Source of the DNA: a phage | Sequence record: PZ445440.1 | Reading direction: 5' to 3' (one strand) | DNA: 64,000 bases | Shown: in pieces, positions 2,151 to 64,000 of the stretch | Position numbering within the stretch: the first letter of the stretch is position 1 | How the letters are laid out: each line of letters opens with the position of its first letter | Notes under the pieces: generated by a model | Told to the model about the DNA's origin: nothing | The model's database searches: none | Seen by the model: the letters and a program-made list of their open reading frames with translations, nothing else | Program-made: the position numbers and the translations under genes

Positions 2151-2721
2151 AAAAGTTTCGGATTTGTTCCCAATTCAGAGAACGAAGATTATTACGAGAG
2201 TACTGAATTACTTCAATACCAGCTTGTTTAAGAATGTCTGTCCAATTTTCAGGAGACCGGTCATATAATTCTGCATATACAACCTTTTTAATGCCTGACT
2301 GTGTGATAGCTTTAGTGCAATCAGGACACGGAGAAAGCGTAGTATATAACGTAGCACCTTCAATAGAATTACCTTTACGAGCAGCAAACAAAATTGCATT
2401 CAATTCCGCATGGATTTCGTTATTAGCAGACCATGCACTATGAGCGGCCCGATGTTCTTTAGCCAAAACAAAATTATCTGCCCGTCCAAATGCTGTAGTG
2501 CCTTCTTTATGCCCAGCAACGATGACCGGGCTTGGTTTATTCTTCAACCAACCTTGTTCGGTAGCATGGTCACAACAGTTTGTACCACCTGAAGGAGACC
2601 CATTATAACCCGTAGAGATAATGCGCCCATCTTTTTCAATGACGGCACCAACTTTCCATGAACAACATTTTGATTCTTGAGAAATCAAATAAGCAATTTG
2701 AAGATATGTGCTAGCTTTCAT
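2140..2721 (-). CDS. cd: dCMP deaminase
   Basis: 193 aa; zinc-deaminase motifs HAELNA...PCxxC (CDA fold); length equals T4 Cd. Confidence 0.9.
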   Translation of the reverse strand: MKASTYLQIAYLISQESKCCSWKVGAVIEKDGRIISTGYNGSPSGGTNCCDHATEQGWLKNKPSPVIVAGHKEGTTAFGRADNFVLAKEHRAAHSAWSANNEIHAELNAILFAARKGNSIEGATLYTTLSPCPDCTKAITQSGIKKVVYAELYDRSPENWTDILKQAGIEVIQYSRNNLRSLNWEQIRNFCGE

Positions 2722-3713
2722 TATTGAACCTTATTAATATAAGTTAACAGCTCTTTAGTTTGTTCCCAACTGATGCACGCATCGGTAACGGAAACGCCAT
2801 AGGACATATTATCAGAAATTTTTTGATTTCCTTCATGTAGGAATGATTCTATCATAATTCCTTTGACCAAATCATTAGCTGCTAAATTTTTACCAATACC
2901 AATTTGATTGCTATAATGCCCATCAGCGTTTGCATGGCTACAGTCAACCATTACATAATGATTCAGACCTACTGCCCTTGCTTTGTTAGAAGCTTCTTGA
3001 ATATCAGAAGAATGATAGTTCGGGCCGTTGGTCCCGCCACGCAATACGATATGCGTATTCTGATTACCTTCAGCTTCAACAATGCCTACAGTACCATCGA
3101 CGTCCATACCCATATACCGATGAGGCCAGGCGGCACTATACATCGCGTCTGTAGCTACTTTAATAGAACCATTAGTTGCGTTCTTGAAGCCTACGCACAT
3201 CGGTAGACCTGAAGCAATTTCACGATGTGTCTGACTTTCAGTCGTACGGGCGCCAATAGCAACCCATGAGAAAATACCAGAAAGATACTTAATCGTGAAT
3301 GGGTCTAATACTTCAGTTGCTAATGGAAGTCCCATACGTAGAAGTTTACGACACAATGTTCGTGCAACTATAAGTCCGTGGTTCATATCAAAACTTCCGT
3401 CAAGATATGGATCATTTACAAGACCTTTCCAACCTACGGTAGTTCGAGGCTTTTCAAAATAAACGCGCATCACTAACAGAACATTAGGAAGACGAGTTTG
3501 AAGTTCAGCCAGACGTTTGCCGTATTCAACAGCAGCAATAGGGTCATGAATTGAACAAGGACCTACAACAATAAGTTTGCGTGGGTCTTCACCGTTCATA
3601 ATCGAATTAACTTGTTCGCGATGAGAAGCCACTTGTGAGGCGTAAGCTTCCGACAAAGGAATAATCTCGGCCAGTTCTTTTGGAGAAATAAGTTTTCCGA
3701 CGACAGGTAACAT
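2721..3713 (-). CDS. 3-deoxy-D-arabino-heptulosonate-7-phosphate (DAHP) synthase, class I (AroG/AroF-like)
   Basis: 330 aa; long colinear blocks shared with recalled E. coli AroG (VVGPCSIHDP, VMRVYFEKPRTTVGWKGL, GARTTESQ.HRE.ASGL, GFKN, ILRGG, SHAN, ESHL.EGNQ, TDAC); TAAGGA RBS. Confidence 0.85.
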   Translation of the reverse strand: MLPVVGKLISPKELAEIIPLSEAYASQVASHREQVNSIMNGEDPRKLIVVGPCSIHDPIAAVEYGKRLAELQTRLPNVLLVMRVYFEKPRTTVGWKGLVNDPYLDGSFDMNHGLIVARTLCRKLLRMGLPLATEVLDPFTIKYLSGIFSWVAIGARTTESQTHREIASGLPMCVGFKNATNGSIKVATDAMYSAAWPHRYMGMDVDGTVGIVEAEGNQNTHIVLRGGTNGPNYHSSDIQEASNKARAVGLNHYVMVDCSHANADGHYSNQIGIGKNLAANDLVKGIMIESFLHEGNQKISDNMSYGVSVTDACISWEQTKELLTYINKVQ

Positions 3714-10511: not shown

Positions 10512-12767
10512 TTAAAGCTTACAAGCAGAACAATCTTCAGCTTTAGGTGTTTCTAATTCATAGTCATCTGTACCTGACCCATCACGGGTGTTATGATAGT
10601 AGAGGTTTTTTCCGCCAAAGTACCAAAAGTAAAGCAGATCGTCAAGCATTACTGACATTGGCACTTTACCTTTCTCAAATACTGCAGGGTCATAGTAAGT
10701 ATTAGCAGAAGCAGATTGGCACACCCATTTCAACATGATAGCAACTTGGGTCAAATAAGGTTTATTACCTTTCTTAGCAAGTTTCCACGCATAGTCGTAA
10801 AGACTCATGTTATGTTCGATATTAGGAACAACCTGTCGGAAGTTGCCTTCTTTAGATTCTTTAATACTTACTGGACCGCGTGGGGGCTCAATCCCGTTTG
10901 TAGAGTTTGATACTTGACTGCTTGACTCACAAGGCATGAGTGCAGACAACGTTGAGTTACGAATTCCATGTTCTTTGAGTTCAGCTCGAAGTTCTTCCCA
11001 GTCGCAGACGTAGTTCGGGGCTGCGATTTGGTCAATCTTTTTATTGTACCAGTCGATAGGTAATTCGCCTCTAGACCATTTAGTGTCTGAATAATACTCG
11101 CAAGGTCCTTTTTCTTTGGCGAGTTTGATTGAAGCTTTGATAAGGCCATATTGCAATCTCTCAAACAATTCATGAGTCAAATCGTTAGCGTCTTCATATG
11201 AAGCAAAGTTAGAAGCTAACCATGCAGCATAGTTCGTCACACCGACACCGAGATTTCGACGCTTTTTAGCTTTTAAAGCTTCTGGAACCGGATAATCTTG
11301 ATAGTCTAACAGGTTATCAAGTGCACGTACTTGTACTTCAGCAAGTTCATTAATTTTATCTTGGTCTTGCCAATCAAATTTATCTAATACAAAAGCAGAT
11401 AATGTGCATAAACCGATTTCAGCATCAGGACCATTCACATCATTAGTTGGAATAGCGATTTCACAACATAAGTTACTCTGACGAATTGGAGCTTTTTCAC
11501 GAATAAATGGAGTGTAGTTATTCGTGTTATCAACAAACTGTGGATAAATTCGAGCAGTACCAGAACGTTCAGTCATGAACAATTCAAAGAGTTCTAGTGC
11601 TTTGATTCTTTTCTTTCTGATTGTTGGGTCTTTTTCAGCTTTCTCATAAAGCTCACGGAATTTATCTTGATCTTCAAAAAACGAGTAGTATAATTCGCCT
11701 GACATTTCGTGAGGGCTAAATAAAGTAATATAATCATTTTTACCAAGGCGTTCCATCATAAGGTCATTAATTTGAATTCCGTAGTCCATATGTCGAATAC
11801 GGTTTTCATCCACGCCTTTGTTATTTTTCAGAACTAATAGGTTCTCTACTTCTAAGTGCCACATCGGATAATACGCTGTAGCAGCACCACCACGAATACC
11901 ACCTTGAGAACAAGATTTTACTGCAGTTTGGAAATGTTTCCAGAATGGAATAACACCTGTATGTCGAACTTCACCCATACCGATCTTAGAACCTTCTGCA
12001 CGAAGCATGCCAACGTTGATACCGATACCAGCTCGTTTAGAAATATATTCAATAATTGACGCCGAAGTTTTGTTAATAGATTTTAACGAATCACCTGCTT
12101 CAATAACTACACAACTAGAGAACTGGCGAGTTGGAGTACGAGCACCTGCCATAATTGGGGTTGGCAATGAAACTTGATGAGTAGAAACAGCATCATAAAA
12201 ACGAATAATATGTTTCAAACGGTCATGAGTTTCGTCTTGATGTAAGGCCATACCAATAGCCATGATAGCAAACTGGGGAGTTTCATAAATCTTACCAGTT
12301 GTTTTATCTTTAACCAGGTATTTTTCTTTAAGCTGCATAGCACCAGCATAAGTCAGGTCAAAATCTCGCTCATGTTTAATCCGAGAATCAAGATAAATGA
12401 TTTCTTCTGCAGAATATCTAGACAACAACTCAGGATCGTATTTGCCTTCATTAACACAGTAAGAAATATGGTCGATAAAAGCAGGCGGTTCAAACTGCCC
12501 ATATACATCTTTACGAAGTGCAAACATTAATCCTTTAGCAGCAACATATTGATAGTCAGGTTCTTCGACAGAAATCGAGTTAGCTGCAACTTTAATACAA
12601 ATCTTCTGAATATCTTTGGTGCTCATCCCATCGACAAGATGGGTCTTAATTTCTTCGTACAATTCATATGGGTCGATTTGTGTTCCTTCACATTGCCAAG
12701 TTAAGACTTGAATAATTTTCTGTGCATCAAAATTTTGGGATACACCACTGCTCTTAGTTACTTGCAT
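10512..12767 (-). CDS. nrdA: ribonucleotide reductase large subunit (class Ia)
   Basis: 751 aa; ATP-cone N-terminus, catalytic NLCCEI-type motif (SNLCCEIAIP), C-terminal Cys pair. Confidence 0.9.
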   Translation of the reverse strand: MQVTKSSGVSQNFDAQKIIQVLTWQCEGTQIDPYELYEEIKTHLVDGMSTKDIQKICIKVAANSISVEEPDYQYVAAKGLMFALRKDVYGQFEPPAFIDHISYCVNEGKYDPELLSRYSAEEIIYLDSRIKHERDFDLTYAGAMQLKEKYLVKDKTTGKIYETPQFAIMAIGMALHQDETHDRLKHIIRFYDAVSTHQVSLPTPIMAGARTPTRQFSSCVVIEAGDSLKSINKTSASIIEYISKRAGIGINVGMLRAEGSKIGMGEVRHTGVIPFWKHFQTAVKSCSQGGIRGGAATAYYPMWHLEVENLLVLKNNKGVDENRIRHMDYGIQINDLMMERLGKNDYITLFSPHEMSGELYYSFFEDQDKFRELYEKAEKDPTIRKKRIKALELFELFMTERSGTARIYPQFVDNTNNYTPFIREKAPIRQSNLCCEIAIPTNDVNGPDAEIGLCTLSAFVLDKFDWQDQDKINELAEVQVRALDNLLDYQDYPVPEALKAKKRRNLGVGVTNYAAWLASNFASYEDANDLTHELFERLQYGLIKASIKLAKEKGPCEYYSDTKWSRGELPIDWYNKKIDQIAAPNYVCDWEELRAELKEHGIRNSTLSALMPCESSSQVSNSTNGIEPPRGPVSIKESKEGNFRQVVPNIEHNMSLYDYAWKLAKKGNKPYLTQVAIMLKWVCQSASANTYYDPAVFEKGKVPMSVMLDDLLYFWYFGGKNLYYHNTRDGSGTDDYELETPKAEDCSACKL

Positions 12768-39568: not shown

Positions 39569-40669
39569 TTACGCTGTGAAGATTTTATCCCACATCGCAA
39601 CAACTGCATCTCGATTATACTTCTTCCATACTGCTTCAGCACGTTTAACTCGAGCTTCGTATGTGTCAGTGAATTCTAATACAGCTTTTGTGTAAAGCGC
39701 AACTACTTCTTTCTTAGGAGTAGAGGAATCAATTTCTACACGCACAGTATCTGGGTCGTATTCGAATGTCGCATGAGGATAATCCTTAAAAACTAACTGG
39801 ATTACAGGGACACCTTTAGAGATGGCTTCAATAGAACTATTCTCTACCGTACCTGTGTCAGGACACGTATTAATAAGTGCTTTAGCTGTTTTAAGACGTT
39901 CCATGATTTCACTGTGTGGAGCATCAATAATAACAGGATACTTAGCCGGTGGTGCCCATTTGCTTGGACAGTATCCTGCACCATTTTCGCCTAGTGCTTT
40001 AATCGCTTCAAGAGCAACATCAGTACGACGCATTTTAGTGTCATAACGTTGTGCACTAATAATCAGATCAGTCGCCGGAAGAACTTCAGGTTTCTCATTC
40101 AAACAAATAACTGGATAATCTTCGGCTTCAAACAACGGATTTGCTCGCCAATAATCATAATCAATTTTGTCAGTCAGACCTGAAGTCATATAACAATATT
40201 TGCGTTCAAATTCACGGAAGGCTTTAGTAGGAGCATAACTCTTACCACCATTCTTATGAATTTGAATAGTCTGGTCCCAAATTTGAACAATGCCACGAGA
40301 TACCGGTTCAAATGGTGTTGCCATAAAATTCTTATGAACTTTAGAGAGACCTGCGTCTTTAATTGCCTGAACGGTTAGTTTAGTCGGTTCCGTAGTAACA
40401 ACAAAATCGTATTCATGGATGTCGGCTAGTTCAACAATCTTACGAGCCATAGTATAACTCATACCTAGACTGAATTTAGTCAGATGACCAACAGGATGAT
40501 GATTAACTTTCCAGTCACCAAACGTGTCATTATCAAAACCGATATAATCAATATCGGCACCAATAGAAACTAAATATTTCAACACATTTAAATGTACTGC
40601 TTCAAGACCACCTTGTACACGTTCTGGGTTAAATGGGACTGCGCGCGATGGGATAAACATAACTTTCAT
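39569..40669 (-). CDS. putative GT-B fold glycosyltransferase (candidate DNA glycosyltransferase)
   Basis: 366 aa; N-terminal GG.E sugar-donor-binding-like segment (ERVQGGLEAVHLNVLKYL) and C-terminal E-x7-E-like/GxPVI segment (ENSSIEAISKGVPVIQ) typical of GT4-like enzymes; not similar to recalled T4 a-gt or b-gt. Confidence 0.55.
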   Translation of the reverse strand: MKVMFIPSRAVPFNPERVQGGLEAVHLNVLKYLVSIGADIDYIGFDNDTFGDWKVNHHPVGHLTKFSLGMSYTMARKIVELADIHEYDFVVTTEPTKLTVQAIKDAGLSKVHKNFMATPFEPVSRGIVQIWDQTIQIHKNGGKSYAPTKAFREFERKYCYMTSGLTDKIDYDYWRANPLFEAEDYPVICLNEKPEVLPATDLIISAQRYDTKMRRTDVALEAIKALGENGAGYCPSKWAPPAKYPVIIDAPHSEIMERLKTAKALINTCPDTGTVENSSIEAISKGVPVIQLVFKDYPHATFEYDPDTVRVEIDSSTPKKEVVALYTKAVLEFTDTYEARVKRAEAVWKKYNRDAVVAMWDKIFTA

Positions 40670-52322: not shown

Positions 52323-52844
52323 TTAGTAACCATTATCCTGACGTTCAAAGTTGTGTTGGTTTTTCAGATAATACAGTTTGAAGATTTCTTCAGCAGAAAG
52401 TCCTAGACCTTGGAACATATTCAGAACAAAGTGGAGGATATCAATCATCTCGAATTTAATTTCAAGCTGGTCTTCAGGAGACAGTTCATCGATACGACGA
52501 TTTCGATATTCAGCATGTTGTGCTTTCCAAGGCTTCCATACAGAGCTAGCGGCTTTTTCACCATTGCTCATACCGCCGAGTGAAGTCAGCAGTTCACGGA
52601 ATTCATCATCAATATAATCTTTCTGATTACGCAGCCAATCAACAACATCACCAGCAGTAGCCAATTCATCAGGATGTTTGTTATGTTCAGGCTTGTCATT
52701 TGCCAGACGAACCTGTAAAGATTTCTGCATATCAAGCATTACCTGCAGTGGGTCTTTATCTTCGTGAATCAGAGCATTAAAATAAGCTTCTTCTGCTTTA
52801 TCAACACCAGAAATAAGTTGTGAACATTCGTTAAAGTGTGCCAT
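52323..52844 (-). CDS. 56: dCTP pyrophosphatase gp56 (MazG-like)
   Basis: Track ORF trimmed to MAHFNEC start; about 173 aa; close match to recalled T4 gp56. Confidence 0.85.
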   Translation of the reverse strand: MAHFNECSQLISGVDKAEEAYFNALIHEDKDPLQVMLDMQKSLQVRLANDKPEHNKHPDELATAGDVVDWLRNQKDYIDDEFRELLTSLGGMSNGEKAASSVWKPWKAQHAEYRNRRIDELSPEDQLEIKFEMIDILHFVLNMFQGLGLSAEEIFKLYYLKNQHNFERQDNGY

Positions 52845-55884: not shown

Positions 55885-56133
55885 TTATTCTTTTTCGCGA
55901 ATAATAATTACTTGTTGAGGCTGCTGAGCCGATTTCTTTTCGGCAACGATAGACCAAATTAAAGTTCCAATCCAACCAACCATCGTCCAGTTAAAGAGTA
56001 AAGATACAAAGAAGATTGCTGTTGTGCTTTTTGTGCCACGAATAAGTGCGATTACCCAAGGCAACATGTAAATGATGATTGAACCAATACCTGCGATTAA
56101 AACTGCTACTGAACTAGCTACGAATAATTCCAT
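55885..56133 (-). CDS. small membrane protein (82 aa, two TM helices)
   Basis: ORF track; hydrophobic segments. Confidence 0.45.
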   Translation of the reverse strand: MELFVASSVAVLIAGIGSIIIYMLPWVIALIRGTKSTTAIFFVSLLFNWTMVGWIGTLIWSIVAEKKSAQQPQQVIIIREKE

Positions 56134-59468: not shown

Positions 59469-60612
59469 GGTCGTTTTCTATATCTGCTGCAGATGGAGCA
59501 TCAGAAGTTTTAACTGGAACCTTAGTTGTTGCTTTGCAATTAATAAGGTCGTTAACAGCGTCATCAACTTCTTTAATAGAAGAGATAGCACCTAGTTTAT
59601 ATTTGGTTTCAATTGCATCTCGGAAAGGTTTGTGTTTAAACAACGGTCCCCAGAATTCTACACAATCAGTAGCTTTAGCACGCCACGATTTCTCTTCACG
59701 AATCATTTCACCTGTTTCTTCGTCAAGGAATTCACGAGCATACCAACCAGCTTTAGGCTTAACTACAAAACCAATTTCAGTTGCCATTTCTAACAAGCCA
59801 CTGAATGGATCAATACCGCCATCAAAATTAACCGTGATTGGGAAAGTAGATTTCTCTTTAACTGTACGAGATTTTTCTGCTTTCAACGTGAAGTCATAAC
59901 CGGTCAATTCTGTACCTTCTTTAACCTGACGTTTAGAGATAAAAAATACCGTGTTGGCAGAGTAAAGAATACCTGTACCACCACCCATAATCTCTTTAGG
60001 ATATAGTCCGCCGATTTCCATTGCTGTATGGTTGATTGCAACACACGGAATATCTTTAATAGTCAGATAAGGAGTCACAATGCGGAACAGAGATTTAAGT
60101 GCCTTAGCACGAGACATATCACCTACAACTTTTTCGTTCAACGCATCTTCGGTTTCTTTCTTAGATGCAGTATTACCGATTGAATCGATAAAGATAATAA
60201 CTTTATCACCGCGTTCAATAGCGTCAAGCTGATTAGTCATATCGACTTTAAGTTGTTCGACAGACTGAATTGGTGTATGAACTACGCGGTCTAAATCAAC
60301 ACCCATCGAACGGAAGTAAGATTCTGAAGCACCGAATTCTGAGTCATAAAACAAACAGATCGCATCTTTATATTTCTTCATATACGCTGCGACCATAGTT
60401 AGTCCAAACAATGTTTTAAAATGTTTAGAAGGTGCAGCAAAAATAGTCAAGCCTGATTGCAATCCTGCATTCAGAGCACCACCTAGTGCAATATTCAACA
60501 TCGGAATACGAGTAGGGACTTCATCACGATTATTAAACAGCTTAGACTTAGTCAAGTCTGCAGTCATTTTAGAAGTAGAAGCTTTAATCAGACGAGATTT
60601 TAAATCAGACAT
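59440..60612 (-). CDS. uvsX: UvsX recombinase (RecA-like)
   Basis: 390 aa; RecA fold Walker A-like (AAPSKHFKT), acidic C-terminus; T4 UvsX 391 aa. Confidence 0.9.
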   Translation of the reverse strand: MSDLKSRLIKASTSKMTADLTKSKLFNNRDEVPTRIPMLNIALGGALNAGLQSGLTIFAAPSKHFKTLFGLTMVAAYMKKYKDAICLFYDSEFGASESYFRSMGVDLDRVVHTPIQSVEQLKVDMTNQLDAIERGDKVIIFIDSIGNTASKKETEDALNEKVVGDMSRAKALKSLFRIVTPYLTIKDIPCVAINHTAMEIGGLYPKEIMGGGTGILYSANTVFFISKRQVKEGTELTGYDFTLKAEKSRTVKEKSTFPITVNFDGGIDPFSGLLEMATEIGFVVKPKAGWYAREFLDEETGEMIREEKSWRAKATDCVEFWGPLFKHKPFRDAIETKYKLGAISSIKEVDDAVNDLINCKATTKVPVKTSDAPSAADIENDLDEMEDFDE

Positions 60613-60710
60613 TGTATTTTTCCATAGGCATCATTATATTTTACTCATGTTTAAAAGATAAGATGATTATATACTAAGGGTTATACAGCATTTAAAACTT
60701 TAAATGGCTC

Positions 60711-61259
60711 TTAACGAGCCCATTTGATGATTTCTGTAATCAAATCATTACGTTCGCTTGCATTAAATCCTATAACTTTGTTAGCACCATCATGATTAAG
60801 TAATTGATACGTTTGGATTTTGTTATGAATTGCAAACTCTTCAAAATGTGAAATGACTGTATTAAAACCGAATGAAGACAAAGTAATAAGGTCGTCTTCA
60901 AAACTTTCAGTCATTTCGTTACGTGTTAAAATAATTGTGAACACATCATGGTTTTGGCAAAGACGAATATAATCCTGTTCATAAACGTCAAGAACCGAGT
61001 CCGCATCTTGTCGAATACGTCCATAAACCCAGTTACTAATATACCCACGGTCTAACAGATAAATCTTAGTAGGGTCTAAATAATTCAACATCGTTTCGAA
61101 ACAGCCAACTTCGTTTCGAGACTTAACATCGAAACGCCCATCAACTGTTCGTTTAGGGAAATCAATCTTTACATATCTTTCACTAATTTCCATTACGTCA
61201 TTAATGAAAGTTGTTTTACCAGCATTATCCGGGCCGTCTACTAAAATAATTTTAGCCAT
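60711..61259 (-). CDS. P-loop nucleotide/nucleoside kinase-like protein
   Basis: 182 aa; Walker A GPDNAGKTT and DRGY motif (LLDRGYISNW) typical of dNMP/thymidylate-kinase fold; no T4 counterpart recalled at this position. Confidence 0.55.
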   Translation of the reverse strand: MAKIILVDGPDNAGKTTFINDVMEISERYVKIDFPKRTVDGRFDVKSRNEVGCFETMLNYLDPTKIYLLDRGYISNWVYGRIRQDADSVLDVYEQDYIRLCQNHDVFTIILTRNEMTESFEDDLITLSSFGFNTVISHFEEFAIHNKIQTYQLLNHDGANKVIGFNASERNDLITEIIKWAR

Positions 61260-61260
61260 T

Positions 61261-62160
61261 TTATTCCTCGATTACGACATCTTCGTATTTAGGTATATTA
61301 TACGGTGAAGAAATTAAAGCATTAAAGTAGATGAACTCACCAAGACCTGGATGGAATACTTCTTCAGGATTTTCGAAATATTGAATCTTCGGACGTCCTT
61401 TAAGAATTTGATAGTACTCAGTTTTAGTTGGTTTAAAAATTCGAATCAGCGCTTCTTCAGGATACTTATTTCTGTCGAAGCTATTATTTGGATCGGTTAT
61501 ATAAAGCGGTTGACCTAATTGAATTGCACATTCAACCACTTGTTCAAAACGATAGCATGGGTCACTAATTCGAAATGGATGAAAAATACCATCTAGATGA
61601 ATAGGAGCCAAATCACCTACAAGACGCTGCATGATGGAAGGACGTATAACTTTCTGGGTTATGATAATCTTATTACCATCGGCACCTGCGTTAACCAGCA
61701 CTTCTTTTTGACGTTCATTCAACACAGTAGTTTGAAGTGAACGATTAACAGACAACATATCGGTTTTTAAGAATTCGTCAATATAAAAACGTGGTTTATT
61801 AGGGTCTGCAGTGATATTGAAATTGAATTCTACATCAAAAGCGCCGTCATATCCAGTGATATCTGTGATTAGAAAATCACAATCATAATAAGCAATTAAT
61901 GAATCAACCACAAATTCATTTTCAGACCAGAAATATTTACGAGTGTTATACGCGTTATCTTTATACCATAATGGAACAAACTTAAATTCTGGGAAAAGAC
62001 GTTCACATTCTTTAATATCAGATGCATTACGTGGATATGTAATCACATCACCCGGATTAGCACGGTGCAAATGAAGTTGGAAGTTGCCATCCTTAAGGAT
62101 AGCATACTGTCCAGTTTCATAAGACCGCATACTCAAGATAGGTACGCGGAAAATAGCCAT
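61261..62160 (-). CDS. hypothetical protein in the beta-gt slot (possible divergent DNA glycosyltransferase)
   Basis: 299 aa; occupies the uvsX-42 interval where T4 encodes beta-glucosyltransferase; weak motif resemblance only (YY...TDI; RFEQVVECAIQLGQPLYITD). Confidence 0.35.
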   Translation of the reverse strand: MAIFRVPILSMRSYETGQYAILKDGNFQLHLHRANPGDVITYPRNASDIKECERLFPEFKFVPLWYKDNAYNTRKYFWSENEFVVDSLIAYYDCDFLITDITGYDGAFDVEFNFNITADPNKPRFYIDEFLKTDMLSVNRSLQTTVLNERQKEVLVNAGADGNKIIITQKVIRPSIMQRLVGDLAPIHLDGIFHPFRISDPCYRFEQVVECAIQLGQPLYITDPNNSFDRNKYPEEALIRIFKPTKTEYYQILKGRPKIQYFENPEEVFHPGLGEFIYFNALISSPYNIPKYEDVVIEE

Positions 62161-62876
62161 TAGTCAAGGAATCCTTTAACATAATCAAAATCACGTTCAA
62201 ACACATGGGCACTTACCATGGTATGAGTATAATCACCAACTTCTACACCACATTCGTTAGCGATATAATGAAGTAATTTTCCTTGGAGATAAAAATCCAA
62301 CTGCATAACAACAGCACAGTTCTGAGAACGCATATGACAGTGGGTATAAAGCTTACCATCACGAATATAATAAGTCACTGAGTCAGTACATGGATATTCA
62401 AGCGTTTCGTCTGAATCAAGCAAAGCCTGATCAGAACTTTCTAGAATTTGGAACACAACTCTTCGAGAGTTAGGCTTCTCTTTAAGTTCTTTTAGAAGAG
62501 CTGGTAATTGGGCCGCAATGCGAGGACCGTAGAAAGTGTTGAAGTTCGCAGGCAAAGCATCTGATTTTGGTTTAGAAATAAATTTAGCGACATTAGGATA
62601 TGCCTTAAACGCTTCTTCTGCATCAGTACCACCAGAAATCATAAACTTCCAGAAGTCTTCGGCATATTCATAAGAGATGCGGTTAATACGTGGGTCGGTC
62701 ATTTTGAATGATGATGGAGTGTCAACAACTACTGTCATAGACCCAATTTCATTACAACGTCCAATACGAGAATCAGTTACGAATTCCGGGTTTTCTAAAA
62801 TTTCACGATTGACTGCTTTAAATGCGGTTTGAAAATCTGCGGCTTTGATATATTTCATTGTGTTATGTTTTCCCAT
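62160..62876 (-). CDS. 42: dCMP hydroxymethylase-like protein (ThyA superfamily), divergent
   Basis: 238 aa; ThyA-fold catalytic region (YPCTDS...YYIRD...HMRSQN...) and position upstream of uvsX; clearly divergent from recalled T4 gp42 sequence. Confidence 0.65.
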   Translation of the reverse strand: MGKHNTMKYIKAADFQTAFKAVNREILENPEFVTDSRIGRCNEIGSMTVVVDTPSSFKMTDPRINRISYEYAEDFWKFMISGGTDAEEAFKAYPNVAKFISKPKSDALPANFNTFYGPRIAAQLPALLKELKEKPNSRRVVFQILESSDQALLDSDETLEYPCTDSVTYYIRDGKLYTHCHMRSQNCAVVMQLDFYLQGKLLHYIANECGVEVGDYTHTMVSAHVFERDFDYVKGFLD

Positions 62877-62918
62877 GTTTACCTCAATACAATTTATTAT
62901 ATACTCGATTCGTAAAGC

Positions 62919-63158
62919 TTATTTGAATTTCTTGGCAGTGTTGATATACCGTAAAGCTTCAGCATCGATACTTCCAAGAACACTATGAAGAAATGCATCA
63001 GCGTAGTATTCTAATTGAACAGGTTCTTTAATCACTTTAGCCGCTTTGGTTTCAAACAGGCCCATCAGGGCCTTTTTAAGAATTTGTTCGTTGCTGTTAA
63101 TTTTAATAGTCAAAATCTCTTCATTAAGTTGGTGGTTAAAAGTTTTTCTAGAAATCAT
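62919..63158 (-). CDS. hypothetical protein (79 aa)
   Basis: ORF track; not hydrophobic, so not an Imm homologue. Confidence 0.45.
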   Translation of the reverse strand: MISRKTFNHQLNEEILTIKINSNEQILKKALMGLFETKAAKVIKEPVQLEYYADAFLHSVLGSIDAEALRYINTAKKFK

Positions 63159-63961
63159 TCCGGGTACCTCAAAGCGTCGTCAGAGTTAGTTATATCAATA
63201 ATAGATATAGAATTTTCTGATAACCCATTTTTAGATAACTGACGTTTATAATATCTTTCACAATATGTACACGTCGTCCCGCAGATTTCATTAGCACAAT
63301 CGAAATCTGGATGTCTGAACCACCTTTTTTCTAAAAAGCCATCTAACAAAGAGGTTTCAATATTTACTGTATGTGAAAACTCAGTTTCGTTTTCAAGAGT
63401 GAAAATAGTCTCTAAAGGCTTCCACAGTTCTAACAAATTACCTTCAAACTTTTCAGAAGCGTATGCTTCAAGAACTTTCAAAATGTAGTCTGTGCTACCT
63501 GTACGTCCTGAAACTTTGAATTGAGTGATACCAATATCATTATAAAGTTTCAAATCTTGGGGACGAACAAAACGAGTTCTCAACCAGTTAAATGGGTCTG
63601 TATCACGAGCTTTAATACAGTGCTGCATTGGATACCCGTTTAAGGATTTAGCATCATCAGCTGTAACATCAGTACTATGGAAAATATAGCAAGAGTCACG
63701 ATAGCTACAATGTGTTGTATACCCTTTACCAGCATTAGAACAGAACTCATTTACAAGAACTTCAAATATTATATTGTTCTTATTGCAAAACTCTGCTGCA
63801 CGCTTCAGGAAAGAAACTGAACGGTTCTTATGAATTCCACAGCAGACCTTTTTGATATTATATTGGTCATGCAAGTATTTGATTTGAGTTACAGCATCGA
63901 CATGTAGAATTGTTGAAACTTCAATCTCAATGTCTTTATTGACTTCACGAACAATTTCCAT
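63155..63961 (-). CDS. Cys-rich protein, possible metal/Fe-S binding (268 aa)
   Basis: 11 Cys including CC pair and C-terminal CxxxCxxC (CGTTCTYC); no T4 counterpart recalled between 42 and 43. Confidence 0.5.
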   Translation of the reverse strand: MEIVREVNKDIEIEVSTILHVDAVTQIKYLHDQYNIKKVCCGIHKNRSVSFLKRAAEFCNKNNIIFEVLVNEFCSNAGKGYTTHCSYRDSCYIFHSTDVTADDAKSLNGYPMQHCIKARDTDPFNWLRTRFVRPQDLKLYNDIGITQFKVSGRTGSTDYILKVLEAYASEKFEGNLLELWKPLETIFTLENETEFSHTVNIETSLLDGFLEKRWFRHPDFDCANEICGTTCTYCERYYKRQLSKNGLSENSISIIDITNSDDALRYPE

Positions 63962-64000
63962 AACAACAGGGTTAGCGATAGTAATACGCCATACGCCTAT

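What the first reader, a model, noticed from the sequence alone, without database searches (positions are those of the whole stretch)
60711..63961. Remodelled gene-42 neighbourhood: P-loop kinase, beta-gt-slot protein, divergent hydroxymethylase and Cys-rich protein; candidate DNA-hypermodification cassette
In T4 the interval between uvsX and gene 42 holds only beta-glucosyltransferase, and 42 is followed by imm. Here a tightly coupled minus-strand operon reads 42-like hydroxymethylase (62160..62876), then a 299-aa protein unlike recalled beta-gt (61261..62160), then a 182-aa P-loop kinase with Walker A and DRGY motifs (60711..61259). Upstream sit a non-membrane 79-aa protein and a 268-aa Cys-rich protein with a CxxxCxxC motif instead of imm. 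The phage keeps cd, td and dCTPase 56, so cytosine is probably replaced by a modified base. A kinase beside a pyrimidine hydroxymethylase echoes pathways in which a hydroxymethyl pyrimidine is phosphorylated before group transfer; the functional link here is inference.
Basis: partly seen in the sequence, partly recalled or inferred. Interest (0 to 1): 0.85.

Follow-up and report, generated by a model that had tools for sequence, protein, structure and literature searches.

The report
Known arabinosyl-5-hydroxycytosine DNA modification genes
This stretch is part of an already published gene cluster that lets RB69-like coliphages replace cytosine in their DNA with arabinose-decorated 5-hydroxycytosine, not hydroxymethylcytosine; one gene in it (a U32-family iron-sulfur protein) has no explained role in the papers I could read and may be an oxygen-independent back-up hydroxylase.

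Summary
The five minus-strand ORFs are real, but the window is phage Bas46 (ChristianSchoenbein), an RB69-like Mosigvirus, and the region is the published RB69 gp45-gp50 segment of the arabinosyl-5-hydroxycytosine cluster. The "gene-42-like hydroxymethylase" is 238/238 identical to RB69 gp48. That enzyme is experimentally an FMN/O2-dependent 5-hydroxy-dCMP synthase, and near-identical crystal structures exist (9iqc). The 299-aa protein is the GT-B arabinosyltransferase gp46:47. The kinase is a Tmk/YorR-like nucleotide kinase. The "268-aa Cys-rich protein" is the C-terminal part of a 386-aa U32-family protein cut by the window end.

The chemistry was wrong: there is no hydroxymethyl group and no evidence for kinase-activated group transfer.

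New here: the U32 protein keeps the Cys residues essential in RlhA, the rRNA 5-hydroxycytidine synthase. In metagenomic phages it sits with the same glycosyltransferase and kinase but without any gp48-type enzyme. It is linked to chorismate mutase and DAHP synthase genes, and one DAHP synthase lies in this window. Prephenate is the oxygen donor of U32 hydroxylases. I infer, untested, an O2-independent route to the hydroxylated base.

The parts
60711..61259 (-). Tmk/YorR-like P-loop nucleotide kinase (RB69 gp45 homolog, 179/182 identical). Substrate not determined.
   Evidence: ORF. PHROG 761 'thymidylate kinase', E 3e-45. Family profile against PDB: YorR 2axp/3kb2 at E 2.4e-8, then thymidylate kinases. 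Invariant G9, G14, K15, D70, R71, S75. Identity to RB69.
61261..62160 (-). GT-B glycosyltransferase, putative arabinosyltransferase 1. It equals RB69 gp47+gp46, which are split in the RB69 reference by a reported sequencing error.
   Evidence: 178/181 and 116/116 identical to RB69 gp47 and gp46. AF2 model with pLDDT 94. Foldseek top hit MshA 3c4q, E 2e-6, TMq 0.61, followed by other GT-B enzymes. No Pfam hit. Role predicted, not demonstrated, in Lee et al..
62160..62876 (-). 5-hydroxy-dCMP synthase: a thymidylate-synthase-fold, FMN/O2-dependent enzyme (RB69 gp48). It is not a dCMP hydroxymethylase.
   Evidence: 238/238 identical to RB69 gp48. 540 bits and near-identical to PDB 9iqc/9ir2. Catalytic C163, E160 (ThyA L143), N186 (ThyA D169), D194 (ThyA N177). 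Experimental function in PMC13326640.
62919..63158 (-). gp49 homolog, 79 aa, function unknown. Translationally coupled to the U32 gene by an ATGA overlap.
   Evidence: ORF. PHROG 8601, unknown function. No Pfam or NCBIfam family. In relatives it co-occurs with, and is distinct from, a chorismate-mutase-like mini-protein in the same slot.
63155..64000 (-). The gene runs off the window end.
   Evidence: Open frame to the window end. Full gene at L001 8556-9716. Pfam PF01136: 42.2 bits full length, 24.8 bits for the window part, cut-off 22.4. Ten invariant Cys in the family. C203/C209 align with RlhA C169/C176. AF2 model of an 87%-identical homolog has pLDDT 91.7, best PDB hit U32 Mk0906 5d88.
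39569..40669 (-). Second putative arabinosyltransferase (RB69 gp3 homolog), outside the finding's coordinates.
   Evidence: Annotated 'putative hmC-arabinosyltransferase' in Bas46. RB69 gp3 is proposed as arabinosyltransferase 2. No Pfam family.
52323..52844 (-). dCTPase/dCDPase (gene 56 homolog). It supplies dCMP and excludes dCTP.
   Evidence: Bas46 annotation. Intact ORF in the window.
2721..3713 (-). AroF/G/H-type DAHP synthase, abutting the dCMP deaminase gene. Inferred to feed the shikimate/prephenate supply for the U32 enzyme.
   Evidence: Pfam DAHP_synth_1 at 252 bits. NCBIfam TIGR00034 aroFGH at 427.7 bits against a 173.2 cut-off. Its genus distribution among phages parallels U32, not gp48.

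Best explanation
The region is the promoter-distal part of the known arabinosyl-5-hydroxycytosine (ara-5hoC) DNA hypermodification cluster of RB69-like Mosigviruses. The window is phage Bas46.

Established in the literature: dCMP is hydroxylated at C5 by the thymidylate-synthase-fold enzyme (62160-62876) using a flavin and O2. 5hodCMP is phosphorylated; the phage gp1-type dNMP kinase was shown to do this. The base is incorporated in place of C. UDP-arabinofuranose, made from arabinose-5-phosphate by enzymes whose homologs are encoded just beyond the window end, supplies the sugars found on the 5-O.

Predicted: the 299-aa GT-B enzyme adds the first arabinose and the gp3 homolog (39569-40669) the second. 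The Tmk-like kinase phosphorylates 5hodCMP or its arabinosylated form.

My inference, untested: the U32-family protein (63155 to beyond the window) is a prephenate-dependent, O2-independent C5 hydroxylase. It would make the same hydroxylated base when oxygen is absent. The phage DAHP synthase (2721-3713) would raise prephenate supply, as the chorismate mutase gene beside U32 would in related phages.
For: Identity of the locus:
- 100% DNA identity to MZ501056.1 and 98.5% to RB69.
- Protein identities to RB69 gp45-gp50 of 96-100%.
- Near-identical solved structures, 9iqc/9ir2/9iqu.
- Upstream genes for arabinose-5-P isomerase, NTP-transferase/kinase and HAD phosphatase.
- Published chemistry and enzymology. 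Bas46 is named among phages with arabinosylated 5hodC.
- GT-B fold confirmed here and U32 fold and family confirmed here.

For the U32 inference:
(a) The characterised U32 members (RlhA for ho5C in rRNA, TrhP for ho5U in tRNA, UbiU/V for ubiquinone) are all linked genetically to prephenate-dependent hydroxylation. RlhA needs Fe-S cluster biogenesis and UbiU/V are Fe-S proteins.
(b) Phage C203/C209 align with the essential RlhA C169/C176, and C233 aligns with a Cys invariant in all four E. coli paralogs. hhalign is best to RlhA, at E 2.5e-5.
(c) Of 39 non-T4-like viral or metagenomic loci with this U32, many of them near-duplicates, none has a gp48-type enzyme within about 10 kb. One has a canonical ThyA. 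26 have the gp46:47-type GT and 28 the gp45-type kinase, often as a contiguous kinase-GT-U32 run.
(d) gp48-only lineages exist (Acinetobacter phages, Dhakavirus IME08; for Rhizobium phage RL38J1 only the U32 genus tally and published Table 1 were checked), as do lineages with both genes.
(e) A chorismate-mutase (CM_2) gene lies between U32 and gp48 in 13 of 15 T4-like loci and in 51 phage records. CM and/or DAHP synthase, often fused, flank U32 in 13 of 39 non-T4 loci.
(f) An AroFGH DAHP synthase lies in this window, with a U32-like genus distribution.
Against: - No experiment touches gp50. Lee et al. list it only as 'sugar or heterocycle reductase'.
- gp48 alone suffices for 5hodC formation in aerobic E. 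coli, and U32-less phages (DLP3, Maestro) make ara-5hoC, so U32 is dispensable at least with oxygen.
- E. coli Dhakaviruses lack U32, so a facultatively anaerobic host does not require it.
- The fourth Fe-S ligand position of UbiU/RlhA is not obviously conserved. The phage family has its own C-terminal four-Cys motif instead.
- Among T4-like phages the U32/CM/DAHPS co-distribution may partly reflect shared ancestry.
- I saw only about 10 kb on each side of the metagenomic U32 genes, so a gp48-type gene could lie elsewhere on those contigs.
- Two key papers could not be read and may already assign or exclude this role: He et al. 2026 (Nat Chem Biol) and Mahler et al. 2025.
Confidence: 0.9

Rival explanations
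1. A divergent gene-42 dCMP hydroxymethylase makes hmC, the P-loop kinase phosphorylates the hydroxymethyl group, and the 299-aa protein then transfers a group onto it, as in 5-hmdU kinase pathways of thymidine hypermodification.
For: The enzyme has the thymidylate-synthase fold with a catalytic Cys and the dCMP-specifying Asp. A P-loop kinase is adjacent.
Against: The protein is identical to RB69 gp48, whose product is 5-hydroxy-dCMP, with oxygen from 18O2 and a bound flavin. It has Asn at the ThyA Asp169 position, the published 5hodCMP-synthase signature. NMR and MS of RB69 DNA show arabinose ether-linked directly to C5-O. The kinase family resembles nucleotide monophosphate kinases.
Confidence: 0.02
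2. The U32 protein belongs to the sugar branch. It would be an epimerase or reductase needed to make or reshape the UDP-arabinose donor, as database annotations ('putative enzyme involved in UDP-arabinose biosynthesis') and Lee et al. ('sugar or heterocycle reductase') suggest.
For: It sits next to the HAD phosphatase and NTP-transferase/kinase genes. In 17 of 39 non-T4 loci it is near a gp52:53 homolog, and in about 10 near an arabinose-5-P isomerase homolog. Its fold is a TIM barrel, common among sugar enzymes.
Against: As reported by Lee et al., UDP-Araf synthesis from arabinose-5-P was reconstituted with two other enzymes (AfhE, AfhF). U32-less phages make ara-5hoC. At least seven loci have only kinase-GT-U32 with no arabinose genes nearby. 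No characterised U32 member acts on a sugar. The chorismate mutase and DAHP synthase linkage is unexplained by a sugar role.
Confidence: 0.15
3. The U32 protein is a phage copy of an RNA hydroxylase (RlhA/TrhP-like). It would modify host or phage tRNA or rRNA, and its place in the DNA-modification cluster would be incidental.
For: The only known pyrimidine substrates of U32 enzymes are RNAs. T4-like phages encode tRNAs (general knowledge).
Against: It lacks the long C-terminal region of RlhA. It is translationally coupled into the DNA-modification operon. It is conserved next to the DNA-modification GT and kinase in unrelated phages, and next to dCMP deaminase, dUTPase/DCD, dNK and NT5C genes.
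Confidence: 0.08
4. The Tmk-like kinase acts on an arabinosylated mononucleotide. The first arabinose would be added to 5hodCMP before replication, and gp45 would convert Ara-5hodCMP to the diphosphate.
For: GT and kinase genes are adjacent in almost every locus and fused into one 550-606-aa protein in L035, L044, L050 and L056. Lee et al. saw no arabinosylation of 5hoC-DNA by single GTs and state that the level of the first transfer is unresolved. The gp1-type kinase already handles 5hodCMP.
Against: In T4, the paradigm for this phage group, glucosylation is post-replicative (general knowledge), and the third arabinose of DLP3 is added on DNA. A simple 5hodCMP kinase role explains the co-occurrence equally well, especially in phages without a gp1 homolog. 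He et al. crystallised an HY126 GT with UDP (9ir0) and may have defined the acceptor; I could not read that paper.
Confidence: 0.3

Closest known systems
RB69 gp45-gp55 arabinosyl-5-hydroxycytosine cluster (Thomas et al. 2018; Mahler et al. 2025; He et al. 2026; Lee et al. 2026)
   Same: Same genes in the same order, at 96-100% protein identity. The phage in the window (Bas46) is itself one of the studied phages.
   Different: Nothing material. In the window the GT is one intact ORF, where the RB69 reference shows two (gp46 and gp47).
T4 gene 42 dCMP hydroxymethylase plus alpha/beta-glucosyltransferases (glucosyl-hmC)
   Same: Same genomic slot between uvsX and DNA polymerase. Same logic: dCTPase, a TS-fold enzyme acting on dCMP, a dNMP kinase, then glycosylation.
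   Different: 27% identity to gp42. Asn replaces the ThyA-Asp169 equivalent. The cofactor is a flavin with O2 rather than methylene-tetrahydrofolate. The product is 5-hydroxy, not 5-hydroxymethyl. The sugar is arabinofuranose, and the GT matches no T4 glucosyltransferase family.
U32-family prephenate-dependent hydroxylases: RlhA (ho5C2501 of 23S rRNA), TrhP (ho5U34 of tRNA), UbiU/UbiV (anaerobic ubiquinone)
   Same: Pfam U32 domain above its cut-off. The RlhA-essential Cys pair is conserved. C5-hydroxypyrimidine chemistry matches the cluster's product. There is genomic linkage to prephenate-making enzymes.
   Different: About 20% identity or less. It is a separate subfamily of roughly 455 clusters at 50% identity. 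It has six further invariant Cys, including a C-terminal CX4CX3CX2C motif, and no RNA-binding extension. The substrate would be a deoxynucleotide or DNA, and no biochemistry exists.
Paired O2-dependent and O2-independent routes to one product: TrhO/TrhP for ho5U, UbiI/H/F versus UbiU/V, phage NrdAB versus NrdDG
   Same: An O2-using enzyme (gp48, a flavin enzyme like UbiI/H/F) and a U32 enzyme sit in the same pathway context. Lineages carry one, the other or both.
   Different: For the phage pair the redundancy is inferred from gene distribution only.
5-hmdU DNA kinase (5-HMUDK) pathways of thymidine hypermodification
   Same: A P-loop kinase is encoded beside a TS-fold pyrimidine-modifying enzyme.
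   Different: Here no hydroxymethyl group exists to be activated. The kinase's nearest structural relatives by sequence profile are YorR and thymidylate kinases. I did not compare it directly with a 5-HMUDK sequence.

Membership tests
RB69-type ara-5hoC hypermodification cluster | TS-fold 5hodCMP synthase with Asn at the ThyA-D169 position, Asp at N177 and Glu at L143 | tested here: met
   N186, D194, E160 and catalytic C163. 238/238 identical to RB69 gp48.
RB69-type ara-5hoC hypermodification cluster | gp46:47-type GT-B glycosyltransferase adjacent to the synthase | tested here: met
   More than 98% identical to RB69 gp47+gp46. GT-B fold model with pLDDT 94; MshA top hit.
RB69-type ara-5hoC hypermodification cluster | UDP-arabinofuranose synthesis genes (arabinose-5-P isomerase, bifunctional NTP-transferase/kinase, HAD phosphatase) in the same cluster | tested here: met
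   Present just beyond the window end in the identical record (L001): SIS domain, NTP_transferase plus kinase-like domain, and an annotated phosphatase.
RB69-type ara-5hoC hypermodification cluster | Virion DNA contains mono- and di-arabinosyl-5-hydroxycytosine | not testable with these tools
   Reported for RB69, and Bas46 is listed among such phages in PMC13326640.
T4 gp42 dCMP hydroxymethylase | Asp at the ThyA-D169-equivalent position (retained by T4 gp42 and E. coli ThyA) and hmdCMP as product | tested here: not met
   Asn186 replaces the Asp. The identical RB69 protein yields 5hodCMP, not hmdCMP.
T4 beta-glucosyltransferase | Sequence match to the T4 glucosyltransferase family | tested here: not met
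   No Pfam or NCBIfam family for the 299-aa protein. No PDB sequence hit. T4 beta-gt does not appear among the top 50 Foldseek PDB hits.
Thymidylate kinase (Tmk) | P-loop and DR(Y/F/H) motif | tested here: met
   GPDNAGKT and D70-R71-G-Y. G9, G14, K15, D70 and R71 are invariant.
Thymidylate kinase (Tmk) | Score above the curated family threshold | tested here: not met
   TIGR00041 scores 16.2 bits against a cut-off of 83.25. There is no significant Pfam hit. It resembles Tmk/YorR only at profile level.
Peptidase-U32 family | U32 domain above Pfam's gathering score, and the U32 fold | tested here: met
   PF01136 at 42.2 bits against a 22.4 cut-off for the full-length protein. Best PDB fold hit is U32 Mk0906 5d88, E 2.6e-7.
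U32 prephenate-dependent hydroxylases (RlhA/TrhP/UbiU/UbiV) | Conserved Cys pair of the U32 motif (RlhA C169/C176, essential) | tested here: met
   Phage C203/C209 align with it in MAFFT and hhalign. Both are invariant in 32 family members. Essentiality is from Kimura et al. 2017.
U32 prephenate-dependent hydroxylases (RlhA/TrhP/UbiU/UbiV) | Complete four-Cys ligand set for a [4Fe-4S] cluster | tested here: inconclusive
   A third Cys (C233) aligns with a Cys invariant in all four E. coli paralogs. The fourth canonical position is not matched. The family has other invariant Cys (C158, C177, C192, C340, C345, C349, C352) that could serve.
U32 prephenate-dependent hydroxylases (RlhA/TrhP/UbiU/UbiV) | Dependence on prephenate and independence from O2 | not testable with these tools
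   Only contextual support: CM_2 and DAHP synthase genes linked to U32 in T4-like and unrelated phages.
5-hmdU DNA kinase (5-HMUDK) family | Homology to characterised 5-HMUDK enzymes and a hydroxymethyl-pyrimidine substrate in DNA | not tested
   No reference sequence was compared. The substrate is absent according to the published chemistry.

The most novel reading that the evidence does not exclude
The U32-family protein (RB69 gp50; window 63155 to beyond the end) is a prephenate-dependent, O2-independent C5 hydroxylase of a cytosine deoxynucleotide (or of DNA). It would be the anaerobic counterpart of the flavin/O2-dependent 5hodCMP synthase encoded two genes downstream. On this reading, the chorismate mutase genes beside U32 in related phages, and the DAHP synthases including the one in this window, are auxiliary genes that supply the stoichiometric oxygen donor. 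That amounts to about 64,000 hydroxylations per genome copy. In many uncultured phages this U32 enzyme, not a thymidylate-synthase homolog, would be the sole source of the hydroxylated base that a conserved glycosyltransferase-kinase pair then processes. This would be the first DNA-pathway substrate for the U32 hydroxylase family and a second, independent origin of 5-hydroxypyrimidine DNA.
Probability: 0.5. Interest if true: 0.8.

Novelty: already known. Interest (0 to 1): 0.5.

Why it matters
The cassette itself adds nothing new. It is the published ara-5hoC system, which shields phage DNA from restriction and CRISPR nucleases and is targeted by type IV systems.

What could matter is the unexplained U32 gene inside the finding. 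If it is an oxygen-independent hydroxylase, it would explain three things:
- how gut coliphages keep their DNA fully modified without O2, given that the known hydroxylase needs O2;
- why these phages carry DAHP synthase and chorismate mutase genes;
- how a large group of uncultured phages that lack the thymidylate-synthase-type enzyme could make a glycosylated hydroxypyrimidine.

It would also extend prephenate-dependent hydroxylation from RNA and quinones to DNA precursors. It further predicts oxygen-dependent differences in phage fitness and in sensitivity to host defences, which is relevant to phage therapy in anoxic niches.

Tried and rejected
- gp49 (79 aa) as a degenerate chorismate mutase: rejected. 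It has no CM_2 match, and gp49-like and CM-like genes co-occur side by side in L014, L019, L021 and L027.
- The DAHP_synth_1 proteins next to U32 as Kdo-8-P synthases using the phage's arabinose-5-P: rejected. NCBIfam scores are 124-237 bits for DAHP synthase models against 30-63 for KDO8PS, several carry a fused CM_2 domain, and the in-window enzyme passes the aroFGH equivalog cut-off.
- U32 as an obligate partner or flavin reductase of gp48: rejected. Each gene occurs without the other.
- The single ThyA-family gene near a non-T4 U32 (L028) as a hidden hydroxylase: rejected. It keeps D169, N177 and L143.
- Sequence searches of PDB with the U32, GT and kinase proteins alone gave nothing useful.
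- Literature searches for a prior U32/chorismate mutase/phage-DNA link found none in the held library. He et al. 2026 is not held, and Mahler et al. 2025 did not turn up in the library searches.
- Promoter and terminator scans were uninformative.
- The habitat (oxic or anoxic) of the metagenomic U32-only phages could not be established.

Full report
WHAT IS THERE

- 60711-61259, 182 aa
- 61261-62160, 299 aa
- 62160-62876, 238 aa
- 62919-63158, 79 aa
- 63155-63961, 268 aa

They are packed as an operon-like run. The 238-aa stop and the 299-aa start overlap as TAATG. One base separates the 299-aa stop from the 182-aa start. An ATGA overlap joins the last two ORFs. A 42-nt gap lies before the 238-aa gene. 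No terminator-like site occurs in 60400-64000 and promoter-like matches are at chance level.

One correction concerns the 268-aa ORF. Its frame is open to the window end, so it is a truncated reading. In the matching GenBank record the gene encodes 386 aa, and PHROG 5757 aligns the window part to profile positions 120-387 of 387.

WHERE IT COMES FROM

Window 60600-64000 is 100% identical to Escherichia phage ChristianSchoenbein (Bas46, MZ501056.1, genus Mosigvirus) and 98.5% identical to RB69. The whole window equals record positions 32479-96478, with two mismatches in the first 50 kb.

Protein identities to RB69:
- kinase: 179/182 to gp45
- 299-aa protein: 178/181 to gp47 plus 116/116 to gp46
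- 238-aa protein: 238/238 to gp48
- 79-aa protein: 76/79 to gp49
- U32 protein: 385/386 to gp50

WHAT IS ALREADY KNOWN (from papers, not from my tools)

Lee et al. (NAR 2026, PMC13326640) report the following.
- RB69 DNA contains mono- and di-arabinosylated 5-hydroxycytosine. The sugar is ether-linked directly to C5-O.
- gp48 converts dCMP to 5-hydroxy-dCMP. The oxygen comes from 18O2 and the enzyme binds an FMN-like flavin.
- The gp1-type dNMP kinase phosphorylates 5hodCMP.
- gp45-gp55 form the modification cluster.
- gp46:47 and gp3 are predicted arabinosyltransferases.
- gp51, gp52:53 and gp55 are proposed to make UDP-arabinofuranose. The paper says homologs in phage HY126 (AfhE, AfhF) were characterised biochemically by He et al. 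2026.
- Bas46 is named among phages containing arabinosylated 5hodC.
- gp45 is listed only as 'nucleotide kinase' and gp50 only as 'sugar or heterocycle reductase'. Neither is discussed in the text.
- The authors state that they cannot tell whether the first arabinose is added to the mononucleotide or to DNA.

A June 2026 paper still says the full pathway is uncharacterised.

WHAT I VERIFIED

- The TS homolog has Pfam Thymidylat_synt. It carries catalytic C163, E160 (ThyA L143), D194 (ThyA N177) and N186 at the ThyA D169 position, the published 5hodCMP-synthase signature. It is near-identical (540 bits) to PDB 9iqc/9ir2/9iqu.
- The 299-aa protein has no Pfam, NCBIfam or PDB sequence match. An AlphaFold2 model (pLDDT 94) is a GT-B fold, with top hit MshA 3c4q at E 2e-6.
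- The kinase family has an invariant P-loop and DR motif. Its profile finds SPbeta YorR (E 2.4e-8) and then thymidylate kinases. It fails the curated Tmk threshold.
- The U32 protein passes Pfam PF01136 (42.2 bits against 22.4). A model of an 87%-identical homolog (pLDDT 91.7) best matches the U32 structure 5d88.
- cd, td, dCTPase and imm are all in the window.

The cassette is already known.

WHAT IS NOT EXPLAINED, AND WHAT I FOUND: THE U32 PROTEIN

(1) Family chemistry. The characterised U32 members are linked to prephenate-dependent hydroxylation. They are RlhA (5-hydroxycytidine 2501 of 23S rRNA), TrhP (5-hydroxyuridine 34 of tRNA, paired with the O2-dependent TrhO) and UbiU/V (paired with flavin monooxygenases). 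RlhA needs Fe-S cluster biogenesis and UbiU/V are Fe-S proteins.

(2) Conserved residues.
- Phage C203 and C209 align with RlhA C169 and C176, which are essential.
- C233 aligns with a Cys invariant in all four E. coli paralogs.
- hhalign gives the best match to RlhA: E 2.5e-5 over 203 columns, against 0.005 for TrhP and 0.008 for UbiU.
- The phage subfamily has ten invariant Cys, including a C-terminal CX4CX3CX2C motif.
- It comprises about 455 clusters at 50% identity with E up to 1e-30.

(3) Gene displacement. I collected 15 T4-like and 39 non-T4-like loci that carry this U32; many of the latter are near-duplicates.
- All 15 T4-like loci have gp48.
- None of the 39 non-T4 loci has a gp48-type enzyme within about 10 kb. 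The single ThyA-family hit (L028) is a canonical thymidylate synthase.
- 26 of the 39 have a gp46:47-type GT and 28 a gp45-type kinase. In at least seven loci these form a contiguous kinase-GT-U32 run with no arabinose genes nearby.
- In four loci the GT and kinase are fused into one protein.
- Conversely, gp48 with GT and kinase occurs without U32 in Acinetobacter phage Maestro and in Dhakavirus IME08.
- By tblastn, U32 is found in 222 phage records, all from enterobacterial or Shewanella-type hosts as far as the genera are listed. gp48 is found in 374 records, including 57 Acinetobacter and 20 Rhizobium phages.
- The pattern (gp48 only, both, or U32 only) is what non-orthologous displacement of one step looks like.

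(4) Link to prephenate.
- A 78-132-aa protein lies between U32 and gp48 in 13 of 15 T4-like loci. Six representatives all pass the Pfam CM_2 cut-off at 36-50 bits (cut-off 27). The same gene is present in Serratia phage LC53 and Erwinia phage Virsaitis27, where it is annotated as chorismate mutase.
- tblastn finds this gene in 51 phage records. Every listed genus also appears among the U32-positive hosts or homologs.
- R11, R28, K39 and S84 of E. coli chorismate mutase are invariant in these proteins, and Q88 is mostly kept.
- In 13 of 39 non-T4 loci U32 is flanked by a chorismate mutase and/or a class I-beta DAHP synthase, often fused.
- Mosigviruses lack the chorismate mutase. This window nevertheless encodes an AroF/G/H-type DAHP synthase at 2721-3713, next to the dCMP deaminase gene.
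- That DAHP synthase occurs in 213 phage records. Its genus profile parallels U32 rather than gp48: Escherichia 125 against 137 (U32) and 177 (gp48), Acinetobacter 4 against 57 for gp48, and no Rhizobium among the ten commonest genera.
- Two different DAHP synthase classes are thus associated with U32 in unrelated phages.

INFERENCE, WITH ITS STATUS

Shown:
- the identity of the locus;
- the U32 fold and family;
- the conserved Cys pair;
- the gene-distribution and linkage patterns.

Taken from papers:
- the chemistry of the DNA;
- the gp48 activity and its O2 dependence;
- prephenate as the requirement or oxygen donor of U32 hydroxylases.

Inferred:
- gp50 hydroxylates C5 of a cytosine deoxynucleotide (or DNA) using prephenate, giving an O2-independent route.
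- The phage DAHP synthase and chorismate mutase raise donor supply. About 64,000 cytosines per genome copy would each need one prephenate.

Caveats:
- There are no experiments on gp50.
- U32 is dispensable aerobically, and U32-less E. coli phages exist.
- The fourth Fe-S ligand is unclear.
- T4-like lineages are phylogenetically non-independent.
- Only about 10 kb on each side of the metagenomic genes was examined, and their habitats are unknown.
- He et al. 2026 and Mahler et al. 2025 could not be read, so the idea may already be published or refuted there.

THE KINASE

Its constant pairing with the GT, and the fusion in some phages, fits two roles. It could be a dedicated 5hodCMP kinase, which is the simplest reading. 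Or it could be a kinase for an arabinosylated mononucleotide, which would mean pre-replicative glycosylation. The data do not decide between these.

gp49

Its function remains unknown. It is not the chorismate mutase.

SCORES

The cassette is already known. The moderate interest score reflects the testable U32-prephenate hypothesis that emerged from the 'Cys-rich protein' in the finding.

Noticed in passing
window 2721-3713 (-), abutting cd at 2140-2721: A complete AroF/G/H-type DAHP synthase gene (330 aa; TIGR00034 at 427.7 bits) lies in a T4-like phage. It occurs in 213 phage records, and its genus distribution parallels the U32 gene rather than the 5hodCMP synthase.
   Followed up: partly
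L035 2594-4411, L044/L056 5237-7057, L050 5354-7006: In uncultured phages the gp46:47-type glycosyltransferase and the gp45-type kinase are fused into one 550-606-aa protein. This suggests the two act on the same or consecutive substrates.
   Followed up: partly
L061 6660-7004 (Serratia phage LC53), L062 6660-7004, L014-L025 and L027 around 11150-11900: A chorismate-mutase (CM_2) mini-protein is translationally coupled between the U32 gene and the 5hodCMP synthase gene in most non-Mosigvirus relatives. It is absent from the window's phage.
   Followed up: yes
L003 13227-14360 and L004 8422-9555: A second, very divergent U32 paralog (22% identity) lies 5 kb from the first. Between and around them are genes for a radical-SAM/SPASM protein, deoxynucleoside kinase, 5'-nucleotidase, NMN transporter and nucleoside deoxyribosyltransferase. 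This may be a two-subunit U32 system like UbiU/UbiV.
   Followed up: no
L002 7447-9086; L006/L007 7504-9083: In megaphage-like contigs (PolIII-alpha, UDG, SSB) the U32 gene directly follows a dCMP deaminase gene; in L002 the two overlap. This hints that the substrate there might be a uracil rather than a cytosine nucleotide.
   Followed up: no
L008 9098-10000 and 13073-14179: A U32-only locus also carries a T4 alpha-glucosyltransferase-like (TAGT) gene, a dUTPase/DCD gene and a UDP-galactopyranose mutase gene. This suggests a different sugar (galactofuranose) on the hydroxylated base.
   Followed up: no
window 55885-56133 (-): The imm superinfection-immunity gene is present but relocated downstream of uvsX/41 rather than next to the gene-42 slot. 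It was displaced, not replaced.
   Followed up: yes
L065 (RB69 NC_004928) 2162-3062: The RB69 reference splits the glycosyltransferase into ORF046c and ORF047c. The window has one intact 299-aa ORF, consistent with the published view that the RB69 split is a sequencing error.
   Followed up: yes
window 24329 and 27044: These are the only two differences between the window and GenBank MZ501056.1 in the first 50 kb. Both lie in long-tail-fibre genes.
   Followed up: no
window 62877-62918: The 42-nt gap before the 5hodCMP synthase gene contains TATATAATAAAT followed by GAGG. This could be an internal promoter plus ribosome-binding site that lets gp48, the GT and the kinase be expressed separately from U32 and gp49. 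The generic scan did not call it.
   Followed up: no
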